Assembly: GCA_042408215.1 (NCBI GenBank)
Contig: JAYFMW010000014.1
Location: 32,001 to 96,000 of the forward strand
Source of the DNA: Microcoleus sp.
GTDB taxonomy: Bacteria > Cyanobacteriota > Cyanobacteriia > Cyanobacteriales > Microcoleaceae
Direction: 5' to 3'
Length of the DNA: 64,000 nt
Positions 23,596 through 36,914 of the stretch are shown here, piece by piece. Every line of letters begins with the position of its first letter. The stretch's first letter is position 1. Made by a program: the position numbers and the translations under genes. Below the pieces are notes generated by a model that worked only from the letters and a program-made list of their open reading frames with translations, did no database searches and was not told where the DNA came from.

Positions 23596-23637
23596 GCTTT
23601 AACCTCTAACTCTTTTCTCAGACATTTCTTGAAAATT

Positions 23638-24927
23638 TCATACAAACGAGTAGTTGTATCCATCGTTTCGTTGAACAGGCTTAATTTGATTCCGAGAAAC
23701 GCTAATCACAGTAGTGTCGTTTACTCGAATATCAAAATTTCCTTTAAACCTTGTGGTTTTAATTCGCTTGCATTTAACCCCCTCATACTTGCCGTCAATT
23801 ACAGAGACAATATCTCCAGTTTTCCAACCTTTGACCTTTTTTTTGGGCTGATAACCCTTGCGAGGAAAACCATATTTATCAGTCTGTACAACTTGGCGAC
23901 TCCCCCAACCCATAGCTTTAATTAGCAAAGGTTGATTGATTGCCAAAGTTAAACCCTGACTCACATCTCCGCAGCAAGCAGCATCTATCCAATGAGCCTT
24001 TGGTAAACCAAGTTTAGTCCGATTGAACTTAGTTAAAGAACCACGTCCTACATATATATGCTCGAGTTTTGTAGCCTTTAAAACTTCGAGCAAAGCAGAT
24101 TTAGTAGCATTGACCGCCGCCGCATCCTTTAATGGTGCTTTAGCTTGACTCATTATTCTTTTAAGAAGATCAGGCTGGCTTTTCAGAAAGTCTTTGATGT
24201 CTTCAGTCCCCTTTTTGATATTGCATTTTTTACAAGCCAAGCACAGGTTAGAAACACGATTGCTACCACCTTTAGCGCGTGGGTTCATATGCTCTACCTG
24301 TAACGGTAAATTTTCAGCACTACAGTAAGCACATTTGCGATTCCACTTTTCAAGCAGGTATTCTCTAACCTCATAACCTTGCAGTTCCCCTTGTTGATAT
24401 TCAATACCATAAACTTCAGGGCTTTGCATTTTTTGAGTATCAAACTTTACCAACTCAAAAGCTATTGATTTAATTGGTGCTAACTTACAAAGGCGATTCA
24501 CCCAGGTAATTGTAGTTAATACTCGATGCTGCAAACTTGGAGGTAGCCAACCTTTCCGACGAATACGATTAAAAAATCGCAGCTGACGATAACGAGTCTT
24601 ACGATTACGGCGGTTGCGTCGGATGGCACGGCGAGTTTCCAGTCGCGATTTGATAGCTTGCCCCCGATGGGTAAGTTCAGCACCCCAAATTACTTGGGTT
24701 AAGAACACCAAAGCTATACCAGTAGTTTTACTACCAGGATCGATGCGAATTTCTATTGGTTGTGGTTGTTCCTCTACTGATTTGTTGAGGATGATTGCAA
24801 ATGGGTACAGTCTGAAAACTTTTGCTTTGCCTGCATTTAATAGCTTTCTAGCTATCACTGGCAGGCACGGGGTTAAAGGTTTCTTCCTGCTATCGAGTAC
24901 GAATACTTGATTGGGATTTTTAGACAT
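23638..24927 (-). CDS. iscB: RNA-guided endonuclease IscB
   Basis: PLTP (PLMP) N-terminus, RuvC-I IDPGSK, R-rich bridge helix, RuvC-II FELVKFD, HNH CAYC...EH...GGSNRVSNLCLACKKCN, RuvC-III HWIDA. Confidence 0.95.
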   Translation of the reverse strand: MSKNPNQVFVLDSRKKPLTPCLPVIARKLLNAGKAKVFRLYPFAIILNKSVEEQPQPIEIRIDPGSKTTGIALVFLTQVIWGAELTHRGQAIKSRLETRRAIRRNRRNRKTRYRQLRFFNRIRRKGWLPPSLQHRVLTTITWVNRLCKLAPIKSIAFELVKFDTQKMQSPEVYGIEYQQGELQGYEVREYLLEKWNRKCAYCSAENLPLQVEHMNPRAKGGSNRVSNLCLACKKCNIKKGTEDIKDFLKSQPDLLKRIMSQAKAPLKDAAAVNATKSALLEVLKATKLEHIYVGRGSLTKFNRTKLGLPKAHWIDAACCGDVSQGLTLAINQPLLIKAMGWGSRQVVQTDKYGFPRKGYQPKKKVKGWKTGDIVSVIDGKYEGVKCKRIKTTRFKGNFDIRVNDTTVISVSRNQIKPVQRNDGYNYSFV

Positions 24928-24934
24928 GGTTGCG

Positions 24935-25156
24935 TCTATTCCTAATTAGTAAAGGTTGCCTTGGCATTGTTATTGGTCGGTATGATCTCAACAGCACTGG
25001 CTTTACAAAATCCTTGCCTGTTTAACTGCCGAGTTATAGAGCTTGGGGCTGGCACGTACTCCAAGGTATGAACTTGAACGCTTGCCAATAACGAAAGCCT
25101 GGACTTACTTAGAATTTTCTGGGTTTATTCAGAAATGTCTAGGATTTGAGTAAGTC
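24935..25156 (-). ncRNA. omegaRNA (HEARO-like) scaffold of the IscB element; guide predicted from 5' flank ~25157-25176
   Basis: Non-coding leader of iscB; GACTTACT (25156-25149) pairs with AGTAAGTC (25109-25102); GTCCAG/CGTTA, GCCAG..GCTCT and TTAAACAG motifs shared with the other omega-like elements. Confidence 0.75.
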
Positions 25157-25435
25157 TTTTTTCTTGAACATTTGTAGCATTCGATCGGTGACTAAGAAAC
25201 CGCCGACAACGTTAATTGTGGCAAGGGCGATCGCGATCGTCCCCAAAATCGAAGTAACAGTCACATTACCTTGGCCTGAAATTAGAATTGCGCCTAAAAC
25301 CGCAATTCCTGAAATCGCATTGGAACCCGACATCAAAGGTGTGTGTAGCGTCGGTGGGACTTTGTTAATTACTTCAAATCCCACAAACGATGCTAGAGTA
25401 AACACCACTAAACCTGCAATCAATCCTTCTGCCAT
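25139..25435 (-). CDS. pntA: NAD(P) transhydrogenase subunit alpha part 2 (C-terminus rewritten by the insertion)
   Basis: LHTPLMSGSNAISG, NVVGGFLVTDRMLQMF. Confidence 0.95.
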   Translation of the reverse strand: MAEGLIAGLVVFTLASFVGFEVINKVPPTLHTPLMSGSNAISGIAVLGAILISGQGNVTVTSILGTIAIALATINVVGGFLVTDRMLQMFKKKDLLKS

Positions 25436-25441
25436 AATACT

Positions 25442-25620
25442 TGGTAATTGGTAATTGGTTATTTGTCATTAGTCATTAGTTGTTAGTCATTAGTCATTAG
25501 TTGTTAGTCATTAGTTGTTAGTCATTAGTTGTTATTTTCAATGACTCCCGACTCCCGACTACCGACTACTAACTACTAACTAATGACTACTAACTAATGA
25601 CTAATGACTACTGACTAATG
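25442..25620. repeat. Heptamer STRR tracts (TTAGTCA / TGACTAA etc.) in inverted arrangement
   Basis: Directly visible between pntA1 and pntA2. Confidence 0.85.
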
Positions 25621-26763
25621 ACTGCTGACTGCGGAAGCAGCCAAAGCATCCCGCACTCGCTGGTTACTAATTTCACCATCACGAGCCACACAGGAACCAG
25701 CGATGATATCGTCTTCAAAATTCAGATTTAGCTCCTTATCTTTCAGCATCAACTGAAGCAAAGACGAGACATTCTTCGAGTAAGTTTCACTAGCATGAAC
25801 AGGCATTGAGGATGGTAAATTAATCGGGCCAATCACATTAACACCGTTCCATTCAACATCTTTTCCTGCTTCCGTGCACTCGCAATTGCCGCCTTGCTCG
25901 GCCGCGAGGTCAACAATTACTGCTCCCGGTTTCATTTGAGAAACCATTTCTCTAGTCACTAAAATCGGTGCTTTTCTACCAGGAACTTGAGCCGTTGTAA
26001 TCACCGCATCGGAAGCACCGACGTGCTGGGTGAGCACTTGACGGGTGTGTTCTTTAGCGGCTTCTGATAATTCTTTAGCATAGCCGCCTGCTGCTACAGT
26101 TTCTTCTTTGAGTTCGACATCAATAAATTTAGCACCCAAACTTTGCACTTGTTCTTTTGTTTCTGGGCGGATGTCAAATGCTTCGACTACTGCGCCCAAA
26201 CGACGCGCCGTGGCGATCGCCTGTAAGCCCGCAACGCCCACACCCATTACCAAAACTTTCGCGGGGCGAATCGTACCCGCCGCCGTTGTCAGCATCGGAA
26301 AATACTTCGGTAAAGCCGCTGCTGCGATCAATACCGCTTTGTAACCGGCGACGTTAGCCTGAGATGACAGCGCATCCATGCTTTGAGCGCGGCTGGTGCG
26401 CGGGATCATTTCCATACTGAATGCAGTCACTTGGCGATCGGCTAAACGCTGTACCAAAGCCGGATTTCCCAAAGGATTCAAAAATCCGATGAAAACTGCT
26501 CCTTCCCGCAGTTGATGAACTTCTGACTCTTGCAATTCCCCGATTTTGACGACGACATCAGCTTCGCCCCACAGCGTAGCGGTATCGGCGACAATCTGAG
26601 CTCCGGCTTCTTCGTAAGCCAGATCCGAGAAAAAGGATTTTGCTCCGGCACCGGCCTCAACCCAAACTTGGACGCCTTGTTTTACCAATTTGGCCACAGC
26701 GTCGGGTACTAAAGCCACCCGGCGCTCGCCTGCTGCTATTTCTTTTGCGATCGCTAATTTCAT
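25615..26763 (-). CDS. pntA: NAD(P) transhydrogenase subunit alpha part 1
   Basis: ERRVALVP, RAQSMDALSSQ, GVGVAGL, DLAAEQGGNC; ATG at 26763. Confidence 0.95.
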   Translation of the reverse strand: MKLAIAKEIAAGERRVALVPDAVAKLVKQGVQVWVEAGAGAKSFFSDLAYEEAGAQIVADTATLWGEADVVVKIGELQESEVHQLREGAVFIGFLNPLGNPALVQRLADRQVTAFSMEMIPRTSRAQSMDALSSQANVAGYKAVLIAAAALPKYFPMLTTAAGTIRPAKVLVMGVGVAGLQAIATARRLGAVVEAFDIRPETKEQVQSLGAKFIDVELKEETVAAGGYAKELSEAAKEHTRQVLTQHVGASDAVITTAQVPGRKAPILVTREMVSQMKPGAVIVDLAAEQGGNCECTEAGKDVEWNGVNVIGPINLPSSMPVHASETYSKNVSSLLQLMLKDKELNLNFEDDIIAGSCVARDGEISNQRVRDALAASAVSSH

Positions 26764-27230
26764 AAACAAACTCGGTAAGTGGGAAACTCAGTGGCTTTAG
26801 CCCGCTCGTGGGAAACGACCCTTCGACTGCGCTCAGGGCGACGCACGAGCGGTTTTAACCGCTTTGAATAACTTGTTTTATTACCGCCTTGGAGTTGTTC
26901 AATTCGGTGTGCTTTTGTGATGCACTTTCAATGGGACAGTTACCATTTCAAATTTCACAACCCTGTACGCATAATAGTTTTGCTCGATTGACAAGCCTCC
27001 CATTTCTGGGGTAATGTTAGCTTCGACCTGTTATAAGAGCTTGTTGGGCTTGCAACACTGTTCCAGTGACCTTAGAACTGTTTAATCACAAGCGACAGAG
27101 CGGGGAACTAGCTACGCATTCGCCCGGTGTCGTGACTCAAATAACGGCTCCTCTTACGAGGGGTCTGGTCAATACGGCTTGCGAGAGATTTCTCTTACAA
27201 GCTCAGTCCCTTTAGGGCTGGGTTACTGAC
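26764..27230 (-). mobile_element. Non-autonomous omegaRNA (HEARO-like) element with no ORF, between the pntA1 RBS and its ATG
   Basis: Begins GTCAGTAAC...TTGACCAGACC, contains TTAAACAG and GGTCGAAG, ends CTGAGTTTCCCACTTACCGAG; homologous to 34098-34459. Confidence 0.85.
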
Positions 27231-27235
27231 GAACT

Positions 27236-27241
27236 CTCCTT
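27236..27241 (-). promoter_or_regulatory. Displaced Shine-Dalgarno AAGGAG of pntA1
   Basis: Lies 5 nt before the ATG once 26764-27230 is removed. Confidence 0.7.
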
Positions 27242-27547
27242 TACTCTCGTTGATAGTAAAGCCGATCGCCCAAATTCGAGCCGTATCTTTAACTTGTCTT
27301 ATAGATTCAGATTCGCTAAATTGTTAAATTTGTTACGTCCCATGATATACTAACGTGCTGACTAATTCTGTAGCTTGAATATCAGCCTGGGATATGGCAT
27401 CAAAAAATTCACCTATATTGTTAAGCGATCGCCCTCATCAAATTTCTCAGAGAGTCGGTAATATTGGAGAGCTAATAGCAAATTGTCAGCACTAAATATT
27501 TGCTAAATATTCAAGGTTCGATCGTAATTTTATTTAGAGGAGTTGTT

Positions 27548-28060
27548 ATGCGACGATTATTTTCAGCACTAGCGGTTACAAGTTGCTTGCTGACTGGCTT
27601 ACCCGCCATCAGTTTAGCCCAAGGAATGCCTGGATTCACAATTTTCGGCGGCCCGGAGCGTAGCAATCAGTTAAACTACCGCTTAGATTACGGCAAATCT
27701 GGGATGAGTGGCGACAGATACCGACTGCGAATTCCTTCTAAGAAAGTAACTTTGGCGATCGCCCAACTAAACATTTCCTATCCAGACTACTACAAAGGCG
27801 AATTCGATCAAAAAGACATTAAAGTGCGCGTCAAAGACAAAACAATCGAATTGCAAGAAGTAATCTGGGACAAAGAAAATCGTTTCATAGAAATTTATCC
27901 CAAAGAGCCAATTCCTGCCGGCAACAATGTTGAGGTTGTACTCTCCAACGTCAAAAACCCATCGCCTGGGGGAATGTATCATTTCAACGTCCGCATCCGC
28001 ACCCCCGGAGACGTTCCCTTGCTGCGTTACCTCGGCACTTGGCTATTGAGCATTGATTAG
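27548..28060 (+). CDS. DUF2808 family exported protein
   Basis: Signal-like N-terminus; LSNVKNPSPGGMYHFN...YLGTWLLSID. Confidence 0.8.
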   Translation: MRRLFSALAVTSCLLTGLPAISLAQGMPGFTIFGGPERSNQLNYRLDYGKSGMSGDRYRLRIPSKKVTLAIAQLNISYPDYYKGEFDQKDIKVRVKDKTIELQEVIWDKENRFIEIYPKEPIPAGNNVEVVLSNVKNPSPGGMYHFNVRIRTPGDVPLLRYLGTWLLSID

Positions 28061-28188
28061 AAGCAAAGGAATCAGGTGGCGGGCAGAAATATCTCGTTTC
28101 CTGGTTTTCGGGAACCATAAAATAGAACCTCTGGCTGATACAGCAATCCTCAGCGATCGGTAAAATAAGTGTACGGGCAATCCCCGTA

Positions 28189-28420
28189 CCATAGGTGTCA
28201 ACTTAAGATTGAAACCCATAATAAATGTCGCTTAAAGTCGAGTCTAGATCCCCCTCCCATCCCCCTTAAGAAGGGAGTAGGGTGTGAGCAGGGGTTGACG
28301 AAAGATCGTACTCTTGTCCCACCCCCTACCCCCCTTAATAAGGGGGGTTAGGGGGGATCGAGACTTCGAGAAAACTCTTGTCTCCGCTCTGATTAAGGGG
28401 GATGCGAGGGGGTTCTGGAC
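28189..28420. repeat. Partial MITE (CCATAGGTGTCAACTTAAG end) with internal CCCCCTTAAGAAGGG palindromes
   Basis: Same end and core as the 41190, 44593 and 47967 copies. Confidence 0.65.
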
Positions 28421-28857
28421 TTGGTGAACCCTAGGAGATTTGTATTTCTTGATTAGGCCCGATCGCACATAGCTTCAAACACACCCCCTGGAATAAACCG
28501 ACACAACGCCCTCCGCCGATCGTCCGCATCTTGGCGGTTGACAAAACGGGCGATCGTATAATGCTGAGCATTCGGTAAAATTCGGACGATCGCCCAAGAA
28601 TTGCGTAGGCGCAAGCCGGGGCGTAGCCATCGCCCTCCTTTGAGATTTCAGGTATTTTCGATCGCGGATTTGAGTTGAGTTCGATCGCGGGGCGATCGTC
28701 GGAGAATTCGCCTTTCTGAGAGTGTTGAGATAGCGGGCGATCGCACTTCCTTTCAGATTCGCCCCGACGCGCAGAATCAGAAACACCGCCAAGCTTTCGA
28801 GCTCTGGCTGAGTCATGCACGCGCGATCGGCCTCAAAGTCCTCATCAGAGAATTGGG

Positions 28858-30125
28858 TAGAAACCCCGTCCTTTAGGACGGCTTTACATTTAATATGTTA
28901 GTATGTGAAGTATGGAAAAAGCTCACCGTTACCGATTTTACCCAACGCCTGAACAAGAGTCGCTATTGCGACGCACATTGGGCTGCGTAAGATTGGTTTA
29001 CAACAAGGCTCTCCACGAGAGAACCCAGGCTTGGTACGAGAGACAAGAAAGAGTTGGATACAACCAGACTTCTTCTATGCTGACTCAATGGAAAAAAGAG
29101 GAAGATCTTGATTTTCTGAATGAGGTTAGCTGCGTACCATTGCAACAAGGGCTTAGACATCTTCAAACTGCTTTCACTAATTTTTTCGCAGTCAGGACTA
29201 AATATCCCAACTTCAAGAAGAAACATCATGGTGGCAGTGCTGAGTTTACTAAATCGGCTTTTAAGTTCAAAAATAAAGAAATTTATCTTGCCAAAAACTC
29301 TGAGCCATTACCGATTAAATGGTCTAGACAAATTCCCAAAGGATGTGAACCGAGCAGTGTAACGGTTAGTCTCCATCCCTCTGGACGCTGGCAGATCTCG
29401 ATTAGGTTTGATGCTCCAACGATTCAACCTTTGCCCATTAGCGACAATTCTGTAGGAATAGATTTGGGAATAACGAGTTTGATTGCGACCAGTAATGGTG
29501 ACAAGATCGCTAATCCCAAGCATTTAAAAAAGCATCTAAAGCGTTTGAAGAAAGCGCAAAAGAATCTTTATCGTAAACAGAAAGGTTCCAAAAACAGAGA
29601 AAAGGCGAGAATTAAGGTTGCTAAAATTCACCTGAAAATCTCCGACGATCGCAAAAATTTATTGCATAAGTTGACAACTCAATTGGTCCGCGAAAATCAA
29701 ACAATTGCTGTTGAGTCGTTGGCGGTTAAGAATATGGTCAAAAACCCTAAACTCGCCTTGGCTATTTCTGATAGCGGATGGAGTGAATTGATTCGACAAC
29801 TGGATTACAAATGTCGTTGGTACGGAAGGAAATTGGTCGCAATTGACCGATGGTTTCCTAGTTCCAAGCGTTGTAGCCACTGTGGGCAGATTGTCGATAA
29901 AATGCCTCTTAATATTCGTGATTGGACTTGTCCGAGTTGTGGTTGTAACCACGCTCGGGATGTCAACGCAAGTAAAAACATTTTGGCCGCTGGACTAGCG
30001 GTGTCAGTCTGGGGAGCGAGTGTAAGACCAGAGCAGAGTAAATCTGTTAAGGCTTCTGCTATGAAACAGAAACTTAAATCGTGAGGTTTAGGAATCCTAG
30101 CCCTTTAGGGCGGGGAGGATGTCAA
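28858..30125 (+). mobile_element. IS200/IS605-family (IS1341-like, TnpB-only) element
   Basis: Left hairpin CCGTCCTTTAGGACGG, right hairpin GCCCTTTAGGGC, terminal GTCAA; boundaries supported by in-frame empty-site reconstruction. Confidence 0.85.
28912..30084 (+). CDS. tnpB: RNA-guided endonuclease TnpB
   Basis: YRFYPT HTH, GIDLG, AVESL, CSHC/CPSC Zn finger, RDVNA. Confidence 0.95.
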   Translation: MEKAHRYRFYPTPEQESLLRRTLGCVRLVYNKALHERTQAWYERQERVGYNQTSSMLTQWKKEEDLDFLNEVSCVPLQQGLRHLQTAFTNFFAVRTKYPNFKKKHHGGSAEFTKSAFKFKNKEIYLAKNSEPLPIKWSRQIPKGCEPSSVTVSLHPSGRWQISIRFDAPTIQPLPISDNSVGIDLGITSLIATSNGDKIANPKHLKKHLKRLKKAQKNLYRKQKGSKNREKARIKVAKIHLKISDDRKNLLHKLTTQLVRENQTIAVESLAVKNMVKNPKLALAISDSGWSELIRQLDYKCRWYGRKLVAIDRWFPSSKRCSHCGQIVDKMPLNIRDWTCPSCGCNHARDVNASKNILAAGLAVSVWGASVRPEQSKSVKASAMKQKLKS

Positions 30126-30325
30126 TTTGGAACAAGCTGTCAGAGAACGCCAAAAACAAATGCAAAAACAGTCCCCACCATCCGATGAGAAACAAGATCA
30201 AAATTGAGTGGAGTTGAGGCGATCGATCTTTTACTCCTTTCCCGGTAGAAGATTATCTACTTCTTCCTGATTCTTCCTGAGTCTTCCTTCGTGTCATAAG
30301 CGTCTTCGCGGTTCAATAATACTAA

Positions 30326-31084
30326 ATGAAATTTATCGGCATAGACTTAGGTTGGAGTTCAGGAGCAAGCGGCTTGTGCTGCTTAAACTGGGAAAACAAT
30401 CAATTACAATTCCTAGAGTGCGATCGCCAACAATCCCTTAACGACATTCTCACCTGGATCGACACCCAAATCTCCCCAAGCGAAGCAGCAATAATCGCAG
30501 TAGACGCCCCCACAATCATCGCCAACCCTACGGGAATGCGCGACGCCGACAAACTCACCCACAAACACTTCGGGCGCTACCACGCAGGCTGCTATCCCGC
30601 CAACCTATCACGCCCCTTCGCCCAAAAAACCGTAGAATTTGGTCTCAGTTTAGAAAGCCGAGGATTTGTCCACGCACCAACTATTGAAGCTCAAAAATTA
30701 GGCAGATATCAAATAGAAGTATTTCCCCATCCAGCCACAATAAACTTATTTAAATTAGACAGAATACTTAAATATAAAAAAGGAAAACTGGCAGAACGTC
30801 AACTAGAATTGATGAAACTCTGCCAGTATATTAGAGATATTTTACCGACTCTTGAACCCTCTCTAAATCTGTCTTGTGGCACAGGCATCTTGCCTGTGAG
30901 CTGTGGCGGTTCAAAACTCCCCGAAATCCCCACCAGTGTTGCAACTCTCAAAGCCTTAGAAGACCAGCTAGATGCCTTGCTGTGCGCTTATATAGGCGCT
31001 CACTGGTGGTACTGGGGAATCGAGCGGAATTTGGTATTGGGCGATCGCACCACCGGCTACATCGTCATTCCCCAACTTCGATAA
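30326..31084 (+). CDS. DUF429 family (RNase H-like predicted nuclease)
   Basis: FIGIDLGW, AVDAP, IEVFPH, EDQLDALLCAY. Confidence 0.8.
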   Translation: MKFIGIDLGWSSGASGLCCLNWENNQLQFLECDRQQSLNDILTWIDTQISPSEAAIIAVDAPTIIANPTGMRDADKLTHKHFGRYHAGCYPANLSRPFAQKTVEFGLSLESRGFVHAPTIEAQKLGRYQIEVFPHPATINLFKLDRILKYKKGKLAERQLELMKLCQYIRDILPTLEPSLNLSCGTGILPVSCGGSKLPEIPTSVATLKALEDQLDALLCAYIGAHWWYWGIERNLVLGDRTTGYIVIPQLR

Positions 31085-31184
31085 GGAGAGAAGGAGAGAA
31101 GGAGAATGGGAGAATTAGAAAAATCTCCCTTGATTGTTATTTCTCCTGACTGCTGACTAATGACTGCTGACTAATGACTACCTT

Positions 31185-33743
31185 CTAATGTGCCCAGAGA
31201 ATCACGCCAGCTTCATAGGGACTGCTGAGATTGTCGTGCTTCGGCAAAACCCGGAGCGACAAACCTTGCAAGCCGCTAGAAGTATAGGTAATGTCAGCGG
31301 TATAAAGACTAGCATTGTGAGCATCTTCTCCCAAATACTCCATTACCACCGGCACGCCACCGATAATATCGCCGTTAACATCGATCGAACCTTGATAAAG
31401 TTCGACTTGTACGTCAGCCGGCGTCAATCCCATGAGATTAATCCGAGCTTTCACATCGATCGACTGATTGACCTTAACTTCCTTATCCTGGGAAATATCC
31501 ACAGCCTCAATCTTAATATCGTGCCACTTAGCGAGCACCTGCTTCTTCCAGTGAGACAACTCCTTAGCCGGAGCACACTGCTCCGAAGTCATAGTGTGGA
31601 ATCGATCGCTGACTGGGAAATAAGCCCGCCGCGCGTAATCCTTCACCATCCGAGCCGTATTGAACAAAGGACAATTCAAGCGAATAGAATCCTTCATTTT
31701 CGCCGTCCAACCACGGGGAATTCCATCAGAATCCCGGTTGTAAAACAGCGGTACAACTTCCTTCTCCATCAACTCGTACAAAGCATTAGCTTCGACATCA
31801 TCCTGATACTTAGTATCTTCGTAAAACTCCCCATGTCCGATCGGCCAACCGGTGCGAACATAATCCGCCTCATCCCACCAGCCATCAAGAATACTCAGAT
31901 TCGGCAAACCATTCATCGAAGCCTTCATCCCCGAAGTACCCGAAGCCTCCCTAGGGCGGCGCGGCGTATTCAGCCACACATCACAGCCAGAAACCATCAT
32001 CCGAGCCACGTTAATGTCGTAATTCGGAAGGAACACCATCGAACTCATCGTGTCGTGTTCGCGGATAAAGTGAACAATATCCCGAATCAATTCCTTACCC
32101 GGAATATCCATCGGGTGAGCCTTCCCAGCAATCACAAACTGCACCGGGCGGTTTTTGTCCCGCATGATCCGCATAATTCGCTCGACATCGCGCAAAAACA
32201 GCGTAGCCCGCTTATAAGTAGCAAAGCGGCGTGCAAAGCCGATCGTCAGCACCTTCGGATCGAGAGCCTCCCGTGCGTGCTCAATTTCCCCTTGAGCAGC
32301 ACCCCGCTCACGCAAAGTCTTTTGCAGCCACTCCCGCGCGAACACCACCAACTCCGATCGACAGCGTTCATGATTCCGCCACAATTCCTCATCAGGAATC
32401 GAAGCCATCTTATCCCACAGGCGATCGTCCTTGCGAGTCATTTCCCAATCCGGGCCCAGGTAGCGATCGTACAGTTCCTGAGTAGACTTAGCCACACAAC
32501 TGCGAGCGTGTACCCCGTTTGTAATCGAAGTAATCGGCACCTCATCCACCGGCAAACCCGGCCACAGGCCCCCAAACATCGGGCGCGACACCTCACCATG
32601 CAAAGCCGCCACCCCGTTGACAAAACTCGACATTTTAATTGCCAAAATTGCCATATTCAGAGGTGCGGACAAATCGCCAGTATTCTCCCGGCCCAACCCC
32701 AGAAACTCATCTTGCGACAACCCAAACATCCTGGGATATTGACCGAGATAGTGCATCACCATATCCGGCTCGAACAAGTCAAACCCAGCAGGGACTGGCG
32801 TGTGAGTCGTAAACATACTGCTGGACACCACCACCTGTTCCGCTTCCTCAAAAGTCAGGTGATATTCCTCCATCAGCATCCGTATCCGTTCCAAAGCCAT
32901 GAAAGCCGCGTGGCCTTCATTCATGTGATAGGCCGTGACTTTCAGCCCCAGGGCTTTCATCATTTTCACACCACCGATGCCCAGCATAATTTCTTGGTGC
33001 ATCCGCAGGGTTTTATCGCCGCCGTACAGTTGGTCGGTAATATCTTGGTCGTAGCGGCTGTTCGGTTCAATATTCGTATCCATCAGGTACAGAGGGACCG
33101 TACCCACTTGCACCCGCCAAATCCGCGCGTAAACCTTGCGGCCTGGATAGTCCACCTCAATCCGCAATTCCGAACCGTCGGGATTGCGTTCTGGGTGGAG
33201 TGGCATATTGTAGAAATCGTTGAGCGGATAGCGTTCTTGCTGCCAGCCGTCAGCGTTGAGATACTGCGAGAAATAGCCTTCTTGGTAAAGCAGGCCAATG
33301 CCGACTAGGGGCAAGCCCAAATCGCTAGCAGATTTGAGGTGGTCGCCAGCGAGCACGCCCAAACCGCCGGAATAGATGGGCAGGGCTTTGACTAAACCAA
33401 ATTCCATCGAAAAGTAAGCGTAGCATTCATGCTGCTCGGTGCCGCGCTGTTTGCGGTACCAGGCGCGATTTTTGAGGTAATCGTCTAATTGCTGGGCCGC
33501 CCGGTTCATTTGGGCGATGAAGCCTTGGTCTTCGGCCATTTCTTGCAGTCGCTCTTGAGAAATGGTTCCCAGCATCAGCACCGGGTTTTGGTTGCTGGAG
33601 TCCCAGAGGTCTCTATCTAGGCGACGGAAGAGGTCTTTGGTTTCGACGTTCCAGTCCCAGTGCAAGTTGTAGGCAAGCTTGCGTAGGGGTTCGAGAATTG
33701 TCGGTAGGGAAGGGGAAACGTTAAATGTGCGAATCGGCTGCAT
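31185..33743 (-). CDS. glgP: Alpha-glucan (glycogen) phosphorylase
   Basis: YSGGLGVLAGD, NEGH, ARRFATYKR, EASGTSGMK. Confidence 0.95.
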   Translation of the reverse strand: MQPIRTFNVSPSLPTILEPLRKLAYNLHWDWNVETKDLFRRLDRDLWDSSNQNPVLMLGTISQERLQEMAEDQGFIAQMNRAAQQLDDYLKNRAWYRKQRGTEQHECYAYFSMEFGLVKALPIYSGGLGVLAGDHLKSASDLGLPLVGIGLLYQEGYFSQYLNADGWQQERYPLNDFYNMPLHPERNPDGSELRIEVDYPGRKVYARIWRVQVGTVPLYLMDTNIEPNSRYDQDITDQLYGGDKTLRMHQEIMLGIGGVKMMKALGLKVTAYHMNEGHAAFMALERIRMLMEEYHLTFEEAEQVVVSSSMFTTHTPVPAGFDLFEPDMVMHYLGQYPRMFGLSQDEFLGLGRENTGDLSAPLNMAILAIKMSSFVNGVAALHGEVSRPMFGGLWPGLPVDEVPITSITNGVHARSCVAKSTQELYDRYLGPDWEMTRKDDRLWDKMASIPDEELWRNHERCRSELVVFAREWLQKTLRERGAAQGEIEHAREALDPKVLTIGFARRFATYKRATLFLRDVERIMRIMRDKNRPVQFVIAGKAHPMDIPGKELIRDIVHFIREHDTMSSMVFLPNYDINVARMMVSGCDVWLNTPRRPREASGTSGMKASMNGLPNLSILDGWWDEADYVRTGWPIGHGEFYEDTKYQDDVEANALYELMEKEVVPLFYNRDSDGIPRGWTAKMKDSIRLNCPLFNTARMVKDYARRAYFPVSDRFHTMTSEQCAPAKELSHWKKQVLAKWHDIKIEAVDISQDKEVKVNQSIDVKARINLMGLTPADVQVELYQGSIDVNGDIIGGVPVVMEYLGEDAHNASLYTADITYTSSGLQGLSLRVLPKHDNLSSPYEAGVILWAH

Positions 33744-33904
33744 AGACAACTTCTATATTTTGGGGTAGGGATATTTTCCTATGTCTTTGGGTACAAGTCC
33801 GTCAATCTGCACACTATTTTAAGTTTTAACTCGCGGGGGGGCGATCGGCTGTCACCTTAACTTCAACTTCTGTGGCGGTTTTAAGGGCGATCGCCCTTAA
33901 AACC

Positions 33905-34015
33905 GCCCAACGTCTGAGCCAGAAATTTTATTGAGGTTAGCTGCGTCCCATTGGAACAAGGATTGCGCCATCTCCAAGCAACTTTTAGTAACTTCTTCGC
34001 CCGGGTGGATGTCAA
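33905..34015 (+). mobile_element. Internally deleted remnant of the 28858-30125 TnpB element family
   Basis: tgaggttagctgcgtcccattggaacaagg...catct matches tnpB ~29121-29190; ends GGATGTCAA like the right end. Confidence 0.7.
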
Positions 34016-34097
34016 CCCTCCTTGTTTATTCTGGCGGTTGAGGTAGGAACACCAATAAGCTAAACTTGTATCCGATCGCCAAATTAACTACAAGGCA

Positions 34098-34459
34098 GTC
34101 AGCAACTCAGGTCTAAAGACACTGAGCTTGTAAGAAATTATAAGCTGTGCTGACCAGACCCCTCTTCTGAGGAGACGTTATTTAGGTCACGATACCGGAG
34201 AATGCGACGCTAGTTTTCCGCTCTATCATCTGCAATTAAACAGTTTTAAAGTCACTGAAACAGTGTTGCAGGTCTAACAAGCCTTTATAACCAGGTCGAA
34301 GCGAACATTACCCGAAAGGGAAAGAGAGACAACCATATCTCCCTAGAGGGGCAACCATACCCCTCTCCCTCGCAAGGGGGATTGAAGGCGGTTGAAACCG
34401 CCGAGTCGTTTCCCTCTCAGGTCTAAAGACTCTGAGTTTCCCACTTACCGAGCTTTTTT
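34098..34459 (+). mobile_element. Non-autonomous omegaRNA (HEARO-like) element with no ORF, directly before the ATG of the DUF4231 gene
   Basis: GTCAGC...GCTGACCAGACC; hairpin CTCAGGTCTAAAGACNCTGAG at both ends; ends CCCACTTACCGAGCTTTTTT followed by ATGA. Confidence 0.85.
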
Positions 34460-35302
34460 ATGACTACTTCTGCACAGAAAAACCAGACCGAGATTTCCAA
34501 TACAGTCTCATCAAATCCACAAATGTTATCTTTCCTGAAAATTATCGAGTATTTATCCCTAGCTGCTTTTGCTGGTGTATGCCTCCTTACCAGAGTTTTT
34601 CCAGACAATCAACTTGTCGTTATCTGGGGAGCTGTTTTTCTCTCTAGCTTTATTTTTATCTTTCTGACCAATAGACAATTGGCTCAGAACTCTAGGAATC
34701 TGACTAATCAGTTAGAACTCGGAAGAAAAGCTGAATTATATAGTTATCTGTTGAACCCGAATAATTCTTCAGAACACAATCTGATAACTCCCGTGAGAGT
34801 AAAGGCTTTACGATATTGCCAGGAGTTGATTGACGACTATAAAAAGACTAGAGAGACTTCGAGAAATATTTATTATACTTTCCAATTGGCAACCGTTATT
34901 TTATCGGGAGTCACACCAATTTTAGTATTGGTAGACAAATTGGAACCAGGTCAAACTTTGCTCAAGTGGCTGCCCGTAATTTGTCCCGCTGTCGCCTCAA
35001 TAGTCGCCAGTATAGTTACCTCCTTTCCTTTTCAGGAGAATTGGATTTCTGCTAACACGACTGTGGAATTGTTAGAAGCGGAACAGGAGAAATTTATATT
35101 GGGAGTGACTCCGGCTTATCGTTGCTATGATGTAGCCGACGAAGCCCAACATCAACAAATGACAAAAATGGCAATAGAAAACTTTATCAATCAGGTGAAT
35201 GAAATTCATCTCAAGCAAATCCAAAAACCAGATGAGACACGATCAAATGAGCAGAATACAGAGCCCGATCAATCTACTGAGTCAAAGCAGGGGCAGAGTT
35301 AA
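34460..35302 (+). CDS. DUF4231 (SLATT-like) membrane protein
   Basis: Two N-terminal TMs, then a helix, a TM pair and ENW...ELLEAEQEKF. Confidence 0.7.
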   Translation: MTTSAQKNQTEISNTVSSNPQMLSFLKIIEYLSLAAFAGVCLLTRVFPDNQLVVIWGAVFLSSFIFIFLTNRQLAQNSRNLTNQLELGRKAELYSYLLNPNNSSEHNLITPVRVKALRYCQELIDDYKKTRETSRNIYYTFQLATVILSGVTPILVLVDKLEPGQTLLKWLPVICPAVASIVASIVTSFPFQENWISANTTVELLEAEQEKFILGVTPAYRCYDVADEAQHQQMTKMAIENFINQVNEIHLKQIQKPDETRSNEQNTEPDQSTESKQGQS

Positions 35303-35496: not shown

Positions 35497-36914
35497 CGGG
35501 AAGCCCCTGGCTTTAGACATGGGGAGGAACGTGGTTGCGACTTACTTGAGGAGCCTGTATTTTTCTTGTCTTTTTAATCATTTGATAGCAGGTGAGAAGG
35601 TATAATACAAAAAGGAGGTAACAAAAATGTTTGGCTGCCAACAAAATCTAATTAGCCCTGATAAAGACCTCAAAGCAATTCTAGAATTCCTGTGCAGTGA
35701 GTCATCAAAATTGACTAATTGCGGAATCTATTACGCTCGTCAAATGTATTTCAAAACAGGTAAAATACCTAGTAGAGCCGAATTGCATAAAGTATTAGGC
35801 ACTGAAAATCGCAATTTGCACTACCAAGCATTTTATTCGGATACTGCACAGCAGATTCTAACTACTGTCGCCGAGTCTTTTAAGTCCTACATTGGACTAT
35901 TAAAAGGCATTAAGGCAGGGACAGTAACTCAAAAGCCTAGACTACCCAATTATCGACAAGGTGGTCTAGCTTTGGTGACGTATACATGGCGCTCTGTAAA
36001 GCTAAAAGACGGGCTATTGAGATTTCCGCTAGGTACGCAGTTAAAAGCCTGGTTCGGACTGGATGCTTTTTATCTACCTATGCCTACAAACTTAGACCAC
36101 ACAGCAATCAGAGAGTATCGAATTCTACCTAGAAACGGCTGTTTTTACTTGGAATTAATCTACAAAACTGAGAATATTGAAGCAGATGTAGACCCATCTA
36201 AAGCTTTGATGATCGACCACGGAATGAACAATTGGCTGACTTGTGTCAGTAATATAGGGACTAGCTTTATTATTGATGGTTTGCATCTGAAGTCGATCAA
36301 TCAAGGATACAATAAGCGTGTTGCTTTTTTGACGGAAGGGAAAGCGAATGGCTATTGGTCAAAACGACTTGAGCGATTGACTGAAAATCGCAATCGGACG
36401 ATGCGAGATGCTGTCAACAAAGCTGCTCGGAAGGTGATTAATCATTGTTTAGTCAACAATCTGGGTACTGTGATATGCGGCTGGAATGCTGGGATGAAAA
36501 ATGGTCTGAATCTGGGAGCTAAAACTAACCAAAAGTTTGTTCAGATTCCAACTGGCAGACTCAAGGATAGAATCGCTCAATTGTGCGAGCAGTATAGAAT
36601 TCGTTTTGTAGAAACTGAGGAGTCCTATACATCGAAAGCTTCGTTTATCGATCGAGATGTGCTACCTAAATTCTGCGAAAAACCAGAAGGGTGGCAACCT
36701 TGCGGTAAACGAATTCAGCGCGGATTGTATAGGACTTTTGAAGGTTTGTTAATTAATGCAGATTGCAATGGTGCAGCTAATATCGGTCGAAAAGTAGCGG
36801 CAACCTTGGGGCTTTGTCTTAAGGGAGTCAGTAGAGGTGCCTTGATAACGCCTTTGAAAGTCCCTTTGTGGTCTTAATCAAGAATCCCCCCGATTCATCG
36901 GTGGGGAGTATCAA
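35497..36914 (+). mobile_element. IS200/IS605-family TnpB-only element (left boundary approximate)
   Basis: Left hairpin CCCCTGGCTTTAGACATGGGG; right end CCCCCCGATTCATCGGTGGGGAGTATCAA. Confidence 0.75.
35627..36877 (+). CDS. tnpB: RNA-guided endonuclease TnpB (cyanobacterial MFGCQQ clade)
   Basis: IDHG (RuvC-I), EESYTSK, INADCNGAANI; AGGAGG RBS. Confidence 0.9.
   Translation: MFGCQQNLISPDKDLKAILEFLCSESSKLTNCGIYYARQMYFKTGKIPSRAELHKVLGTENRNLHYQAFYSDTAQQILTTVAESFKSYIGLLKGIKAGTVTQKPRLPNYRQGGLALVTYTWRSVKLKDGLLRFPLGTQLKAWFGLDAFYLPMPTNLDHTAIREYRILPRNGCFYLELIYKTENIEADVDPSKALMIDHGMNNWLTCVSNIGTSFIIDGLHLKSINQGYNKRVAFLTEGKANGYWSKRLERLTENRNRTMRDAVNKAARKVINHCLVNNLGTVICGWNAGMKNGLNLGAKTNQKFVQIPTGRLKDRIAQLCEQYRIRFVETEESYTSKASFIDRDVLPKFCEKPEGWQPCGKRIQRGLYRTFEGLLINADCNGAANIGRKVAATLGLCLKGVSRGALITPLKVPLWS

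What the first reader, a model, noticed from the sequence alone, without database searches (positions are those of the whole stretch)
26764..34459. Two protein-free omegaRNA elements, each inserted immediately before a host ATGA start codon
Seen: 26764-27230 (-) and 34098-34459 (+) are homologous ORF-less elements. They share a 5' GTCAG..TGACCAGACC stem, central TTAAACAGTT..GTCACTG.AACAGTGTTGCA, GGTCGAAGC.AACATTACCC, and 3' CTGAGTTTCCCACTTACCGAG. Both are followed directly by ATGA, which is the start codon of pntA1 (ATGAAA) and of the DUF4231 gene (ATGACT). The 5' flanks are AAAGGAGAGTTC (a clear SD) and ACAAGGCA (weaker). Knowledge: IscB omegaRNAs take their guide from the 5' flank and need a 3' TAM; ATGA is a reported IscB TAM; stand-alone omegaRNAs can act in trans. 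Inference: this family may target translation starts. It would leave ORFs intact, become their 5' leader, be transcribed from host promoters, and carry guides matching the RBS region of the empty allele. This could be stealthy selfish insertion or domesticated RNA-guided control of translation. Two of two copies is suggestive but a small sample.
Basis: partly seen in the sequence, partly recalled or inferred. Interest (0 to 1): 0.88.

Follow-up and report, generated by a model that had tools for sequence, protein, structure and literature searches.

The report
IscB guide-RNA mini-transposons at start codons
Two gene-less copies of a known mobile element (the guide-RNA half of an IscB transposon) sit exactly in front of the start codons of two host genes, and most of the other copies in this genome do the same, because the family inserts before ATGA and persists in transcribed gene leaders.

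Summary
Both stretches are full-length matches to Rfam HEARO, the IscB omegaRNA (145.7 and 135.9 bits). They are ORF-less deletion derivatives of a 1.6-kb IscB transposon. Relatives carry precise empty sites, leader|ATGA, with no duplication.

The genome holds 70 HEARO matches. Four subfamilies end directly at ATGA, giving 60 ends. In 47 of 60 that ATG is a host start codon, against 13.6% expected among tolerated ATGA sites (P=1.8e-29). The genes include the single-copy rpsP and rplS. Insertions are young and polymorphic.

Best reading: selfish IS200/IS605-type (ISC, N|ATGA) elements, mobilised in trans by TnpA. They are retained where host promoters read into them. No evidence supports domesticated regulation: 45 of 48 guides have no in-genome target.

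The element type, the target and the read-in requirement are published. I found no paper stating the start-codon rule. This scan had already noted the rule on other DNA. A third, intact IscB element splits the same pnt operon.

The parts
26764..27230 (-). ORF-less omegaRNA element 1 (467 nt, subfamily A), inserted between the pntA leader and the pntA ATG
   Evidence: Sequence. Empty site in 13 of 13 relatives' loci. Homologous to a full-length family A element over positions 1-235 and 411-467.
27011..27230 (-). omegaRNA scaffold (HEARO match) of element 1
   Evidence: RF02033, 135.9 bits, E 4.3e-28, model positions 1-211.
27231..27246 (-). 5' flank of element 1. This is the guide source and the native pntA Shine-Dalgarno region (GAGTAAAGGAGAGTTC).
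   Evidence: The same leader abuts the ATG in relatives. Anti-SD duplex energy is -8.8 kcal/mol, against -2.5 for the element's own 3' end.
25615..26763 (-). pntA (AlaDh_PNT N and C domains, 382 aa). Its ATGA at 26760-26763 is the target/TAM.
   Evidence: Pfam, (protein 18).
34098..34459 (+). ORF-less omegaRNA element 2 (362 nt, subfamily A), inserted before the DUF4231 gene ATG
   Evidence: 8 loci empty and 1 filled in relatives. 93.5% identical over 215 nt and 90% over the last 80 nt to the full-length element C3:407065.
34098..34311 (+). omegaRNA scaffold (HEARO match) of element 2
   Evidence: RF02033, 145.7 bits, E 1.8e-30.
34106..34126 (+). 5' subterminal hairpin CTCAGGTCTAAAGACACTGAG, a likely TnpA-binding end hairpin that also forms part of omegaRNA stem P1
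   Evidence: Read. Pairs 19-32 and 23-31 covary among 23 copies.
34416..34436 (+). 3' subterminal hairpin CTCAGGTCTAAAGACTCTGAG, a near-copy of the 5' hairpin
   Evidence: Read. Two-ended subterminal hairpins are the IS200/IS605 hallmark (Kapitonov 2016, passages).
34082..34097 (+). 5' flank of element 2, the guide source (AATTAACTACAAGGCA)
   Evidence: Orthologous leader in empty sites with 1-2 mismatches.
34460..35302 (+). DUF4231 gene (280 aa). Its ATGA at 34460-34463 is the target/TAM.
   Evidence: protein 16.
23600..25156 (-). Third element, about 1557 nt, full-length and of another subfamily (F). It carries a weak HEARO match at 24949-25156 and an intact IscB ORF at 23638-24927. It is inserted between pntA2 and pntB, 4 nt before the pntB GTG (23595).
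   Evidence: HEARO 70.8 bits, below the gathering score. 88.6% identical over 1562 nt to C7:93727. RRXRR + HNH. Boundaries.

Best explanation
Both features are non-autonomous, protein-free (PATE/MITE-like) derivatives of an ISC-type IS200/IS605 transposon. They keep the whole IscB omegaRNA scaffold (about 215-235 nt) and the last 57-80 nt of the parent element, and have lost the iscB ORF.

Shown here:
- Their identity as omegaRNA.
- Their derivation from the full-length element.
- Precise insertion 5' of ATGA without duplication.
- Open Y1 TnpA genes and intact, matching IscB genes elsewhere in the genome.
- A genome-wide habit of abutting host start codons in sense orientation.
- The youth and polymorphism of the insertions.

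Inferred:
- A Y1 TnpA supplied in trans pastes the single-stranded element next to TCAT (ATGA on the RNA strand).
- The guide lies in the 5' flank, so a working guide RNA arises only if a host promoter reads into the element.
- Copies sitting in the sense strand of a gene leader can therefore, with IscB supplied in trans, cut the empty donor joint (leader + ATGA). They are restored by recombination, whereas silent copies are lost on excision.
- ATGA start codons are the commonest sense ATGA in leaders, so the survivors pile up exactly on start codons.
- The host gene then uses the element as its 5' leader and initiates at the abutting ATG.

The element's 3' end offers an SD-like motif in subfamilies B2 and C. 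In A, the window's subfamily, and in B1 it offers only a U-rich tract.
For: Identity:
- RF02033 at 145.7 and 135.9 bits.
- In 23 ORF-less family A scaffolds, 17 of 36 predicted pairs are kept through compensatory changes.

Derivation:
- blastn against the full-length element C3:407065 (1596 nt; IscB 423 aa with RRXRR + HNH) matches only the two ends.

Target:
- All 60 counted ends of subfamilies A, B1, B2 and C are followed by ATGA. ATGA was part of how ends were counted; motif hits without it (16, 31, 1 and 0) were set aside.
- Empty sites are seen at pntA (13 of 13), the DUF4231 gene (8 empty, 1 filled), rpsP (22 of 22 empty) and rplS (20 empty, 2 filled, 2 not found).

Trans factors:
- 20 Y1_Tnp matches, 13 of them near-full-length (score 87 bits or more) and 12 of those without internal stops.
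- 31 RRXRR matches, 18 with open frames of 402-459 aa and no internal stop, including family A copies C3:407314 and C8:37798.

Start-codon habit:
- 47 of 60 ends open an ORF of 60 aa or more, or petL/petM. Of those 47, 41 have a Pfam family, mostly matched from profile position 1-2.
- 41 of 60 coincide with starts from the same crude gene caller used for the null, against 13.6% expected (P=4.7e-22). Using 47 of 60 gives P=1.8e-29.

Orientation:
- The next downstream gene is on the same strand for 57 of 60 ends.
- For 31 control ends that share the B1 terminus but lack HEARO and ATGA, the figure is 21 of 31 (Fisher P=8.7e-4).

A leader-only null already predicts 45-75% at start codons.

Tolerance by the host:
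- Single-copy rpsP and rplS carry an element.
- No terminator-like site lies on the sense strand inside either window element.

Literature:
- N|ATGA target of ISC1-1_MA (Kapitonov 2016, PMC4810608, passages).
- The guide lies outside the IS, read-in transcription is needed, an orientation bias exists, and the GstIscB TAM is TTCAT (Meers 2023 preprint, passages).
Against: - No transcript evidence. Metatranscriptome contigs laid on the pntA locus came from other copies or from relatives with empty sites, and none bridged a junction.
- The leader-only null does not fully explain the pile-up. 47 of 48 sites at or within 50 nt of a start are the start itself, against 74.5% expected (P=1.3e-5). For 100 nt it is 47 of 50 against 58.9% (P=2.3e-8). 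Something beyond 'anywhere in a leader' favours the start codon.
- The null rests on my crude gene caller (5475 genes, first-ATG rule).
- The window's subfamily A brings no real SD (mean -1.9 kcal/mol against a background of -2.56). It replaces a strong one at pntA (-8.8). How translation is kept up is unknown.
- In subfamily C the G-run could pair with an upstream C-run, read from the print, and so be structural rather than an SD.
- The cognate TnpA was not identified.
- The upstream gene is co-oriented in only 29 of 48 cases. Read-in must therefore often come from the downstream gene's own promoter, which was not mapped.
Confidence: 0.8

Rival explanations
1. Start-codon docking is an evolved strategy rather than a by-product. 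The ATG of a start codon serves as a TAM and target that the host cannot mutate away. The RBS region gives a conserved, unstructured guide. The element's 3' end is shaped to restore translation. Together these would make the family an obligate parasite of gene leaders.
For: - The start codon is favoured over other leader ATGA sites (P=1.3e-5 and 2.3e-8).
- SD-like 3' ends occur in subfamilies C (-9.7 kcal/mol) and B2 (-6.8), against a background of -2.56.
- The same start codon is used repeatedly. rplS is filled in G000, G017 and G023, while relatives at 99% identity are empty. The CPP1-like gene carries family A in G000 and family B1 in G017.
- Single-copy essential genes are tolerated as hosts.
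- Families without an ATGA end (D and F, n=6) do not show the downstream-gene link: 3 of 6.
Against: - Subfamilies A and B1 (43 of the 60 ends) bring no SD.
- With about 50 insertions per genome among about 2250 ATGA starts, roughly one shared site between two genomes is expected by chance. This is my arithmetic numbers.
- No functional data.
- The null model is crude.
Confidence: 0.3
2. TnpA or IscB recognises a longer target than ATGA, for example SD plus ATG, so insertion itself is aimed at translation-initiation regions.
For: - Young, strain-specific insertions are already at starts: pntA 0 of 13 relatives filled, rpsP 0 of 22.
- This argues against slow attrition.
Against: - Base frequencies at -8..-1 and +5..+10 of the insertion sites look like those of ordinary ATGA-start genes. 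No position is conserved.
- 13 of 60 ends are at non-start ATGA.
- Known TnpA target recognition uses 4-5 nt (Kapitonov 2016, Meers 2023; passages).
Confidence: 0.1
3. The ORF-less omegaRNAs are domesticated. With IscB in trans they would bind or cut host DNA or RNA at RBS-ATG sites to control expression.
For: - The scaffolds keep their structure, with compensatory changes.
- One element (C23) has a perfect 16-nt guide + ATGA match elsewhere in the assembly, at C28:256581.
Against: - 45 of 48 guides have no match (16 nt, up to 2 mismatches, + ATGA) elsewhere. Two of the three hits have 2 mismatches, about what chance gives.
- The insertions are strain-specific rather than conserved.
- IscB keeps RRXRR + HNH.
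- Copy number varies from 2 to at least 43 among 24 genomes of the genus, as expected for a transposon.
Confidence: 0.04
4. The pattern is only what purifying selection against ORF disruption leaves of random ATGA insertions.
For: None of the 13 non-start ends lies inside a predicted gene, so ORF disruption is indeed avoided.
Against: Among tolerated sites (2247 starts + 14217 non-coding ATGA) only 13.6% are starts. Observed: 41-47 of 60 (P between 4.7e-22 and 1.8e-29).
Confidence: 0.02

Closest known systems
ISC transposons with the N|ATGA target (ISC1-1_MA of Microcystis, ISC2-1_HM, ISC2-1_MS; Kapitonov, Makarova & Koonin 2016, PMC4810608; passages read)
   Same: - 5' end GTCA...
- Insertion exactly 5' of ATGA without duplication.
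- Subterminal hairpins.
- iscB on the sense strand.
- An end shared with TnpB-only IS605B elements. The window's TnpB element at 28846 abuts TCAT and carries the B1-type hairpin.
- Non-autonomous, with Y1 TnpA supplied in trans.
   Different: - The two flagged copies have lost iscB altogether.
- The paper does not contain the words 'start codon', 'translation' or 'intergenic' (0 occurrences each). Here 47 of 60 copies sit on start codons.
[quoted passage not shown] 2023 preprint, 10.1101/2023.03.14.532601; passages read)
   Same: - The omegaRNA scaffold lies at the transposon end and the guide lies in the 5' flank.
- The TAM TTCAT equals ATGAA on the RNA strand.
- Transcription must start outside the element.
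- An orientation bias relative to neighbouring genes is reported.
   Different: - Their bias is measured against the upstream gene. Here the link is to the downstream gene (57 of 60 same strand) and much weaker to the upstream one (29 of 48).
- No experiment was done here.
PATEs / MITE-like protein-free IS200/IS605 derivatives, and stand-alone omegaRNAs (the latter recalled from Altae-Tran et al. 2021, not read here)
   Same: - Only the transposon ends are kept, without a protein gene.
- Many copies per genome.
- The omegaRNA has no adjacent nuclease, while matching IscB genes lie elsewhere.
   Different: - Unlike a minimal PATE, these keep the complete 215-235-nt guide-RNA scaffold, with covarying helices.
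- Trans use by IscB is untested.
HEARO RNA, Rfam RF02033 (Weinberg et al. 2009; recalled, the paper was not held)
   Same: - Full-length matches above the gathering score.
- A multi-copy family in a cyanobacterium.
   Different: The Rfam model stops about 20-30 nt before the end of the conserved scaffold and does not cover the 3' transposon end.

Membership tests
HEARO / IscB omegaRNA (Rfam RF02033) | Covariance-model score at or above the gathering score (83 bits) over the whole model | tested here: met
   145.7 and 135.9 bits, model positions 1-211. 64 of 70 genome matches are above the cut-off.
HEARO / IscB omegaRNA (Rfam RF02033) | Lies directly upstream of an iscB (RRXRR-RuvC/HNH) ORF | tested here: not met
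   - There is no ORF in either flagged element.
- The feature is met by the parent-type copy C3:407065 and by the third window element.
- The flagged copies are orphan scaffolds, not complete loci.
HEARO / IscB omegaRNA (Rfam RF02033) | Helices maintained by compensatory substitutions | tested here: met
   In 23 ORF-less family A scaffolds, 17 of 36 predicted pairs show changes on both sides with pairing kept. The copies are related, so this shows descent from structured masters. It does not show present function of each copy.
ISC / IS200-IS605 superfamily, N|ATGA group | Precise insertion 5' of a 4-nt target with no target-site duplication | tested here: met
   Filled and empty alleles were compared at pntA, the DUF4231 gene, rpsP and rplS.
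ISC / IS200-IS605 superfamily, N|ATGA group | Subterminal hairpins at both ends instead of terminal inverted repeats | tested here: met
   Element 2 carries CTCAGGTCTAAAGAC(A/T)CTGAG at 34106-34126 and 34416-34436. Element 1 has the analogous pair. Binding by TnpA was not tested.
ISC / IS200-IS605 superfamily, N|ATGA group | A Y1 (HUH) TnpA available to mobilise it | tested here: inconclusive
   There are 20 PF01797 matches, 13 of them near-full-length (score 87 bits or more) and 12 of those without internal stops. Which one, if any, recognises these ends was not determined.
Stand-alone, trans-acting omegaRNA | An intact IscB of the matching subfamily elsewhere in the genome | tested here: met
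   Family A copies C3:407314 and C8:37798 have open frames of 448 and 450 aa without stops. The scaffold of C3:407065 is 93.5% identical to that of element 2.
Stand-alone, trans-acting omegaRNA | The RNA is made with its 5' guide and loaded into IscB | not testable with these tools
   No usable RNA data were found.
Domesticated RNA-guided regulator (TldR-like logic) | The guide matches a host site present in the same genome, the effector is nuclease-dead, and the locus is conserved | tested here: not met
   45 of 48 guides have no in-genome target. HNH and RRXRR are present. The insertions are strain-specific.
IStron / self-splicing intron in a leader | A match to a group I or group II intron RNA family | tested here: not met
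   The Rfam gathering scan of the whole window found only the two HEARO matches.

The most novel reading that the evidence does not exclude
The ATGA-type IscB/omegaRNA elements are specialised parasites of gene leaders, and landing on the start codon is selected for in its own right. The ATG is a TAM the host cannot lose. The RBS region supplies a conserved, accessible guide. Host promoters make the guide RNA. The element's 3' end (SD-like in subfamilies B2 and C, U-rich in A and B1) substitutes for the displaced ribosome-binding site. That substitution would let even single-copy ribosomal-protein genes be colonised, and the same start codons be re-colonised in different species. If so, these elements may also couple host-gene expression to omegaRNA processing or IscB binding.
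Probability: 0.3. Interest if true: 0.7.

Novelty: new member of a known kind. Interest (0 to 1): 0.45.

Why it matters
The element type is textbook OMEGA biology, so the two features themselves are ordinary. What is worth knowing is the scale and regularity of the pattern.

- In one genome, about 50 RNA-guided transposon copies have wedged themselves between the ribosome-binding site and the ATG of working genes. These include rpsP, rplS, fusA, petL, petM, chlB and hisG, and none of the reading frames is broken.
- This bears on genome annotation. A 350-1600-nt 'intergenic' stretch before a start codon in cyanobacteria is often one of these elements. The true RBS then lies far upstream.
- It bears on how IscB elements obtain their guide transcripts.
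- It raises the question of how translation starts without the native SD.
- It also gives a natural set of about 50 leader|ATGA targets and orphan scaffolds for testing trans-acting omegaRNAs.

I found no paper that states the start-codon rule (searches; passage search). It follows closely from published facts, and this scan has already seen it on other genomes.

Tried and rejected
- **RNA evidence.** The look-up of sequencing runs listed 18 RNA or probably-RNA rows; the best held 0.23 of the words and the rest 0.17 or less. I laid X1, X2, X5 and X14, all contigs. The pieces on the scaffold come from other copies or organisms, since their loose ends differ. The one contig on pntA (X1, record 1) runs on upstream of the ATG for about 129 letters with no further piece laid, which I read as a relative's leader without this element. 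No verdict on co-transcription.
- **Promoter and terminator scan.** It found 18 promoter-like and 14 terminator-like sites, not above shuffles (14.2 +/- 3.6 and 12.4 +/- 4.2). No sense-strand terminator lies inside either element. One promoter-like site (27489-27460, minus strand) lies upstream of element 1. This is weak evidence.
- **Extended target motif.** None was found.
- **In-genome guide targets.** There were 3 hits for 48 guides. Two have 2 mismatches and look like chance. One is exact and unexplained.
- **RBS-donor idea.** It holds for subfamilies B2 and C only, not for the window's subfamily A.
- **Replicate in G017.** Only 13 of 30 HEARO loci had a 3' end that my G000-derived motifs recognise. 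5 of 5 ATGA ends are at ORFs of 127 aa or more. 7 family-A-type ends are followed by GTGA, and only 2 of those are at GTG starts. The sample is too small for a test.
- **Element-presence tag.** It mislabelled G000's own rplS copy, so I read the printed junctions instead.
- **Family F target.** It could not be defined from 2 copies.
- **Rows dropped before the count of 60.**
  - Two family-A rows with 4 mismatches and no T-run: C17-182907, which lies next to a tnpA and may be real, and C20+547742.
  - Two identical family-C rows with 4 mismatches.
  - With these included the count is 47 of 64 (P=2.7e-27).
- **Rows set aside.**
  - 16 family-A-motif hits without ATGA (3-4 mismatches).
  - 1 B2 hit without ATGA.
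  - 31 B1-type ends without ATGA, which were used as the control.
- **Ends not counted.** At least two further copies end at ATGA (C20:549101 and C17:185218) but escaped the motif scan. 22 of the 70 HEARO matches are not linked to any of the 60 ends. These are families D and F, and copies whose 3' ends are divergent or unresolved.
- **Literature.** Weinberg 2009 (PMC4140389) is not held.
- **Earlier scan note.** Note e1-5210004 is marked 'part of it fell' without saying which part.
Full report
**1. What is there**

The window is G000:C14:32001-96000. Gene content marks the genome as a cyanobacterium (petL, petM, chlB, cemA, ftrV).

An Rfam scan of the whole window gives exactly two matches above the gathering score. 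Both are to HEARO (RF02033), the IscB omegaRNA:
- 34098-34311(+), 145.7 bits, E 1.8e-30.
- 27011-27230(-), 135.9 bits, E 4.3e-28.

Both cover model positions 1-211.

The two stretches align with each other (ignore its third row, a filler). About 245 nt at the 5' end and about 75 nt at the 3' end align, and a variable middle does not. Neither stretch holds a sense ORF of 50 aa or more.

Both are followed at once by ATGA. Pfam shows that the ATG is the true N-terminus of PntA and of a DUF4231 protein.

**2. What the elements are**

I compared them with a full-length copy in the same genome, C3:407065. That copy is 1596 nt long and its 423-aa ORF carries RRXRR + HNH, so it is IscB.
- Element 2 matches positions 1-215 at 93.5% and the last 80 nt at 90%.
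- Element 1 matches positions 1-228 at 75% and the last 56 nt (1541-1596) at 82%.

The iscB ORF has been replaced by 68 or 175 nt of other sequence. The elements are therefore internal-deletion, protein-free derivatives. They keep the whole guide-RNA scaffold and both transposon ends.

Element 2 carries nearly the same hairpin near both ends, CTCAGGTCTAAAGAC(A/T)CTGAG. This is the IS200/IS605 arrangement.

The trans-acting factors are present in the genome:
- 20 matches to Y1 TnpA, 13 of them near-full-length and 12 of those without internal stops.
- 31 matches to the IscB RRXRR domain, 18 with open frames of 402-459 aa and no internal stop. Two of these are family A copies.

Among 23 ORF-less family A scaffolds, 17 of 36 predicted pairs are kept through changes on both sides. 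The orphans therefore descend from structured, working RNAs and have not decayed.

**3. Boundaries and target, from empty sites**

At each site the ATGA belongs to the host. Insertion is to the base, without duplication, between the leader and the ATG. This is the N|ATGA target that Kapitonov et al. 2016 described for ISC1-1_MA and others (passages).

- **pntA.** In 13 of 13 relatives' loci, pntA is preceded directly by ...AAGGAGA(G/A)TT(C/T)|ATGAAATTAGCG. One of these (G014) carries an upstream sequence clearly orthologous to G000's 5' flank.
- **DUF4231 gene.** 8 loci are empty, and one (G009, 99% identical) carries the element.
- **rpsP.** 22 of 22 relatives' loci are empty.
- **rplS.** 20 are empty, 2 are filled (G017, G023) and 2 could not be read. 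The relatives at 99% identity are empty.

The insertions are therefore young and polymorphic.

**4. Genome-wide pattern**

G000 holds 70 HEARO matches, 64 of them above the cut-off. All-against-all comparison splits them into subfamilies.

Four subfamilies end directly at ATGA:

| Subfamily | 3' end | Ends | Notes |
|---|---|---|---|
| A | ...CCCACTTACCGAG + T-run | 33 | the window's subfamily |
| B1 | ...GGGGTTTCAAACCCATTTTTCTG | 10 | |
| B2 | ...CCGTGAGGTTTTT | 6 | |
| C | ...CCAAGGGGGAAGACAG | 11 | full-length; most copies 90-96% alike |

In 47 of these 60 ends, the ATG opens an ORF of 60 aa or more, or opens petL or petM. Of the 47, 41 have a Pfam family, usually matched from profile position 1-2 near residue 1-14. 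By subfamily:
- A: 27 of 33.
- B1: 7 of 10.
- B2: 5 of 6.
- C: 8 of 11.

The host genes include rpsP, rplS, fusA, petL, petM, chlB, hisG, cbiC, ftrV, cemA, an arginine decarboxylase gene, an ammonium-transporter gene and a PBP gene. rpsP and rplS are single-copy, so an element in that position is compatible with expression.

Rows dropped or missed are listed under Tried and rejected. With the four dropped rows included, the count is 47 of 64.

**5. Is that more than chance?**

A crude gene caller of my own found 5475 genes covering 75% of the genome (first-ATG rule). It gives these ATGA counts:
- 50,012 ATGA sites on both strands.
- 2,247 at predicted starts.
- 14,217 in non-coding DNA.

If insertions were random among tolerated sites, 13.6% would be at starts.

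| Criterion | Observed | P |
|---|---|---|
| Same gene caller as the null | 41 of 60 | 4.7e-22 |
| ORF/Pfam criterion | 47 of 60 | 1.8e-29 |

(Both.)

A narrower null counts only sense-strand ATGA within W nt upstream of a start, plus the starts themselves. It predicts the following fractions at starts:
- W=50: 74.5%.
- W=100: 58.9%.
- W=200: 44.6%.

Much of the 'start-codon' effect is therefore a 'sense strand of a gene leader' effect combined with the ATGA target. Even so, the start codon is over-used within leaders:
- 47 of 48 against 74.5% (P=1.3e-5).
- 47 of 50 against 58.9% (P=2.3e-8).

Of the 13 non-start ends, none lies inside a predicted gene, and 10 are followed by a same-strand gene 36-1551 nt away.

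No base beyond ATGA is conserved at the sites.

**6. Controls and contrasts**

- **Control ends.** The B1-type terminus also occurs 31 times followed by something other than ATGA: ATAA 16, GTAA 6, ATCG 4, others 5. None of these has a HEARO within 2 kb. They are probably TnpB-type elements that share the end, as Kapitonov describes. The window's own TnpB element (ORF 28912-30084) starts at 28846, right after TCAT, and carries the same hairpin. For these 31 ends the next gene is on the same strand in 21, and within 100 nt in 5. For the 60 HEARO ends the figures are 57 and 50 (Fisher P=8.7e-4 and 4.6e-10).
- **HEARO subfamilies D and F.** Their ends are not at ATGA (n=6). The downstream gene is co-oriented in 3 of 6 and the upstream gene in 5 of 6.
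- **ATGA subfamilies.** The upstream gene is co-oriented in only 29 of 48. These subfamilies are tied to the gene they precede.

**7. Mechanism (inferred)**

Meers et al. 2023 (preprint, passages) make four relevant points:
- The IscB guide lies outside the transposon, so transcription must start in host DNA.
- IscB elements show an orientation bias.
- The TAM of GstIscB (TTCAT) is the TnpA target.
- Cutting of the empty donor joint restores the element by recombination.

Applied here, a copy in the sense strand of a leader is transcribed with its guide. It can defend its site, using IscB in trans for the orphans. A silent copy is lost on excision.

The youth of the insertions fits a fast filter or a real insertion bias better than it fits slow attrition.

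The guides are simply the host leaders. For pntA the guide includes the SD, GAGTAAAGGAGAGTTC. For 45 of 48 elements, no 16-nt guide + ATGA match (up to 2 mismatches) exists elsewhere in the genome. This fits homing and not regulation.

**8. What happens to translation**

The native SD of pntA (-8.8 kcal/mol against the anti-SD) now lies 467 nt upstream of the ATG.

| Sequence | Mean anti-SD duplex energy (kcal/mol) |
|---|---|
| Background: 2206 ATGA-start genes | -2.56 |
| Subfamily A 3' ends | -1.9 |
| Subfamily B1 3' ends | +1.0 |
| Subfamily B2 3' ends | -6.8 |
| Subfamily C 3' ends | -9.7 |

(All.)

The 'replacement RBS' idea therefore holds for B2 and C. It does not hold for the window's subfamily A, which offers only GAG-N7 and a U-run.

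In subfamily C the G-run could also pair with an upstream C-run (read from the print), so even there the SD reading is not secure.

No sense-strand terminator-like site lies in either window element (a weak scan). RNA data were uninformative.

**9. Recurrence**

- The rplS start is filled in G000, G017 and G023 by variants with different 3' ends, while closer relatives are empty.
- The CPP1-like gene start carries subfamily A in G000 and subfamily B1 in G017, next to orthologous 5' flanks.
- With about 50 insertions per genome among about 2250 ATGA starts, roughly one coincidence per genome pair is expected. This fits a restricted site set but does not prove hot spots.
- HEARO occurs in 24 of 24 genomes of the genus, with 2 to at least 43 matches each.

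**10. A third element in the same operon**

A weak HEARO match lies at 24949-25156(-), 70.8 bits. It heads a full-length element of about 1557 nt, 88.6% identical to C7:93727. Its ORF at 23641-24927(-) is IscB, with RRXRR + HNH.

The element sits between pntA2 (25142-25435) and pntB (22189-23595, GTG start). It ends 4 nt before that GTG and rewrites the last residues of PntA2. The pnt operon thus carries two elements and keeps all three reading frames open.

**11. Comparison with the literature and with earlier notes**

These points are published: the element type, the N|ATGA target, an end shared with TnpB elements, trans-mobilisation, orphan protein-free derivatives and the read-in requirement.

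I found no paper that states that these elements sit on start codons:
- Searches found none.
- 'Start codon' occurs 0 times in Kapitonov 2016 and in the 2026 OMEGA review.
- It occurs once in the Meers preprint, in a passage on measuring distances.
- Weinberg 2009 could not be read, and supplements were not consulted.

Earlier notes of this scan report the same habit on other DNA. These include a look-alike element in another cyanobacterium, e1-5210004, which is marked 'part of it fell' without detail.

**12. Verdict**

The domestication reading is not supported.

This is a new member of a known kind. It shows an unusually clean, quantified genome-wide pattern. The open question is why the start codon itself, and not merely the leader, is favoured.

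Noticed in passing
window 23600-25156 (-): A full-length IscB/omegaRNA element of another subfamily is inserted between pntA2 and pntB. It ends 4 nt before the pntB GTG and changes the PntA2 C-terminus. The 429-aa ORF at 23638-24927 is IscB, not a pnt gene.
   Followed up: partly
window 28846-30084 (+) and 35627-36877 (+): Two TnpB (OrfB_IS605) genes lie in the window. The first element starts right after TCAT (ATGA on the other strand, 29 nt upstream of a minus-strand ORF's ATG). It carries the hairpin CCGTCCTTTAGGACGG that also ends the B1 HEARO subfamily. This is an end shared between IscB and TnpB elements, as in Microcystis.
   Followed up: partly
G000 C23:24419-25918 and C28:255097-256596: The 1500 nt upstream of the full-length (broken-iscB) element on C23 are 100% identical to a stretch on C28. 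There they are followed by ATGA and unrelated sequence. This element's guide therefore has a perfect target in the same assembly. It could be a duplication, a recombination between copies or an assembly branch; I did not resolve which.
   Followed up: partly
G000, 31 sites listed (e.g. C30:248780, C20:478295): The B1-type 3' terminus occurs 31 times followed by ATAA, GTAA, ATCG and similar, without a HEARO nearby. These are probably TnpB-type or PATE elements with a TTAT-like TAM. I used them only as a control.
   Followed up: partly
G017 loci L125, L130, L133, L140, L143, L144: In a sister species, family-A-type ends are followed by GTGA instead of ATGA. Two of the seven sit on GTG start codons (a purS-like 94-aa ORF and a glyA-like 427-aa ORF). 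The target seems to have been retuned from ATGA to GTGA.
   Followed up: partly
L038 (G000 C5:596343) and L136 (G017): The same start codon, of a CPP1-like gene, is occupied by a subfamily A element in G000 and a subfamily B1 element in G017, next to orthologous 5' flanks.
   Followed up: yes
G000 C6:209965-211487 (L044): Two omegaRNA scaffolds lie in tandem, about 870 nt apart, upstream of a single 3' end and the DUF4335 gene ATG.
   Followed up: no
G000 C20:689447-692034 (L056): A composite sits in front of a GH57 gene ATG. It consists of tnpA, a broken tnpB, a truncated family A scaffold and a normal family A 3' end.
   Followed up: partly
G000 C20:208628-209296 (L116): The sucD-like ORF behind a subfamily C element is only 223 aa long, and its Ligase_CoA domain is cut at profile position 73 of 128. 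It is possibly truncated or frameshifted.
   Followed up: no
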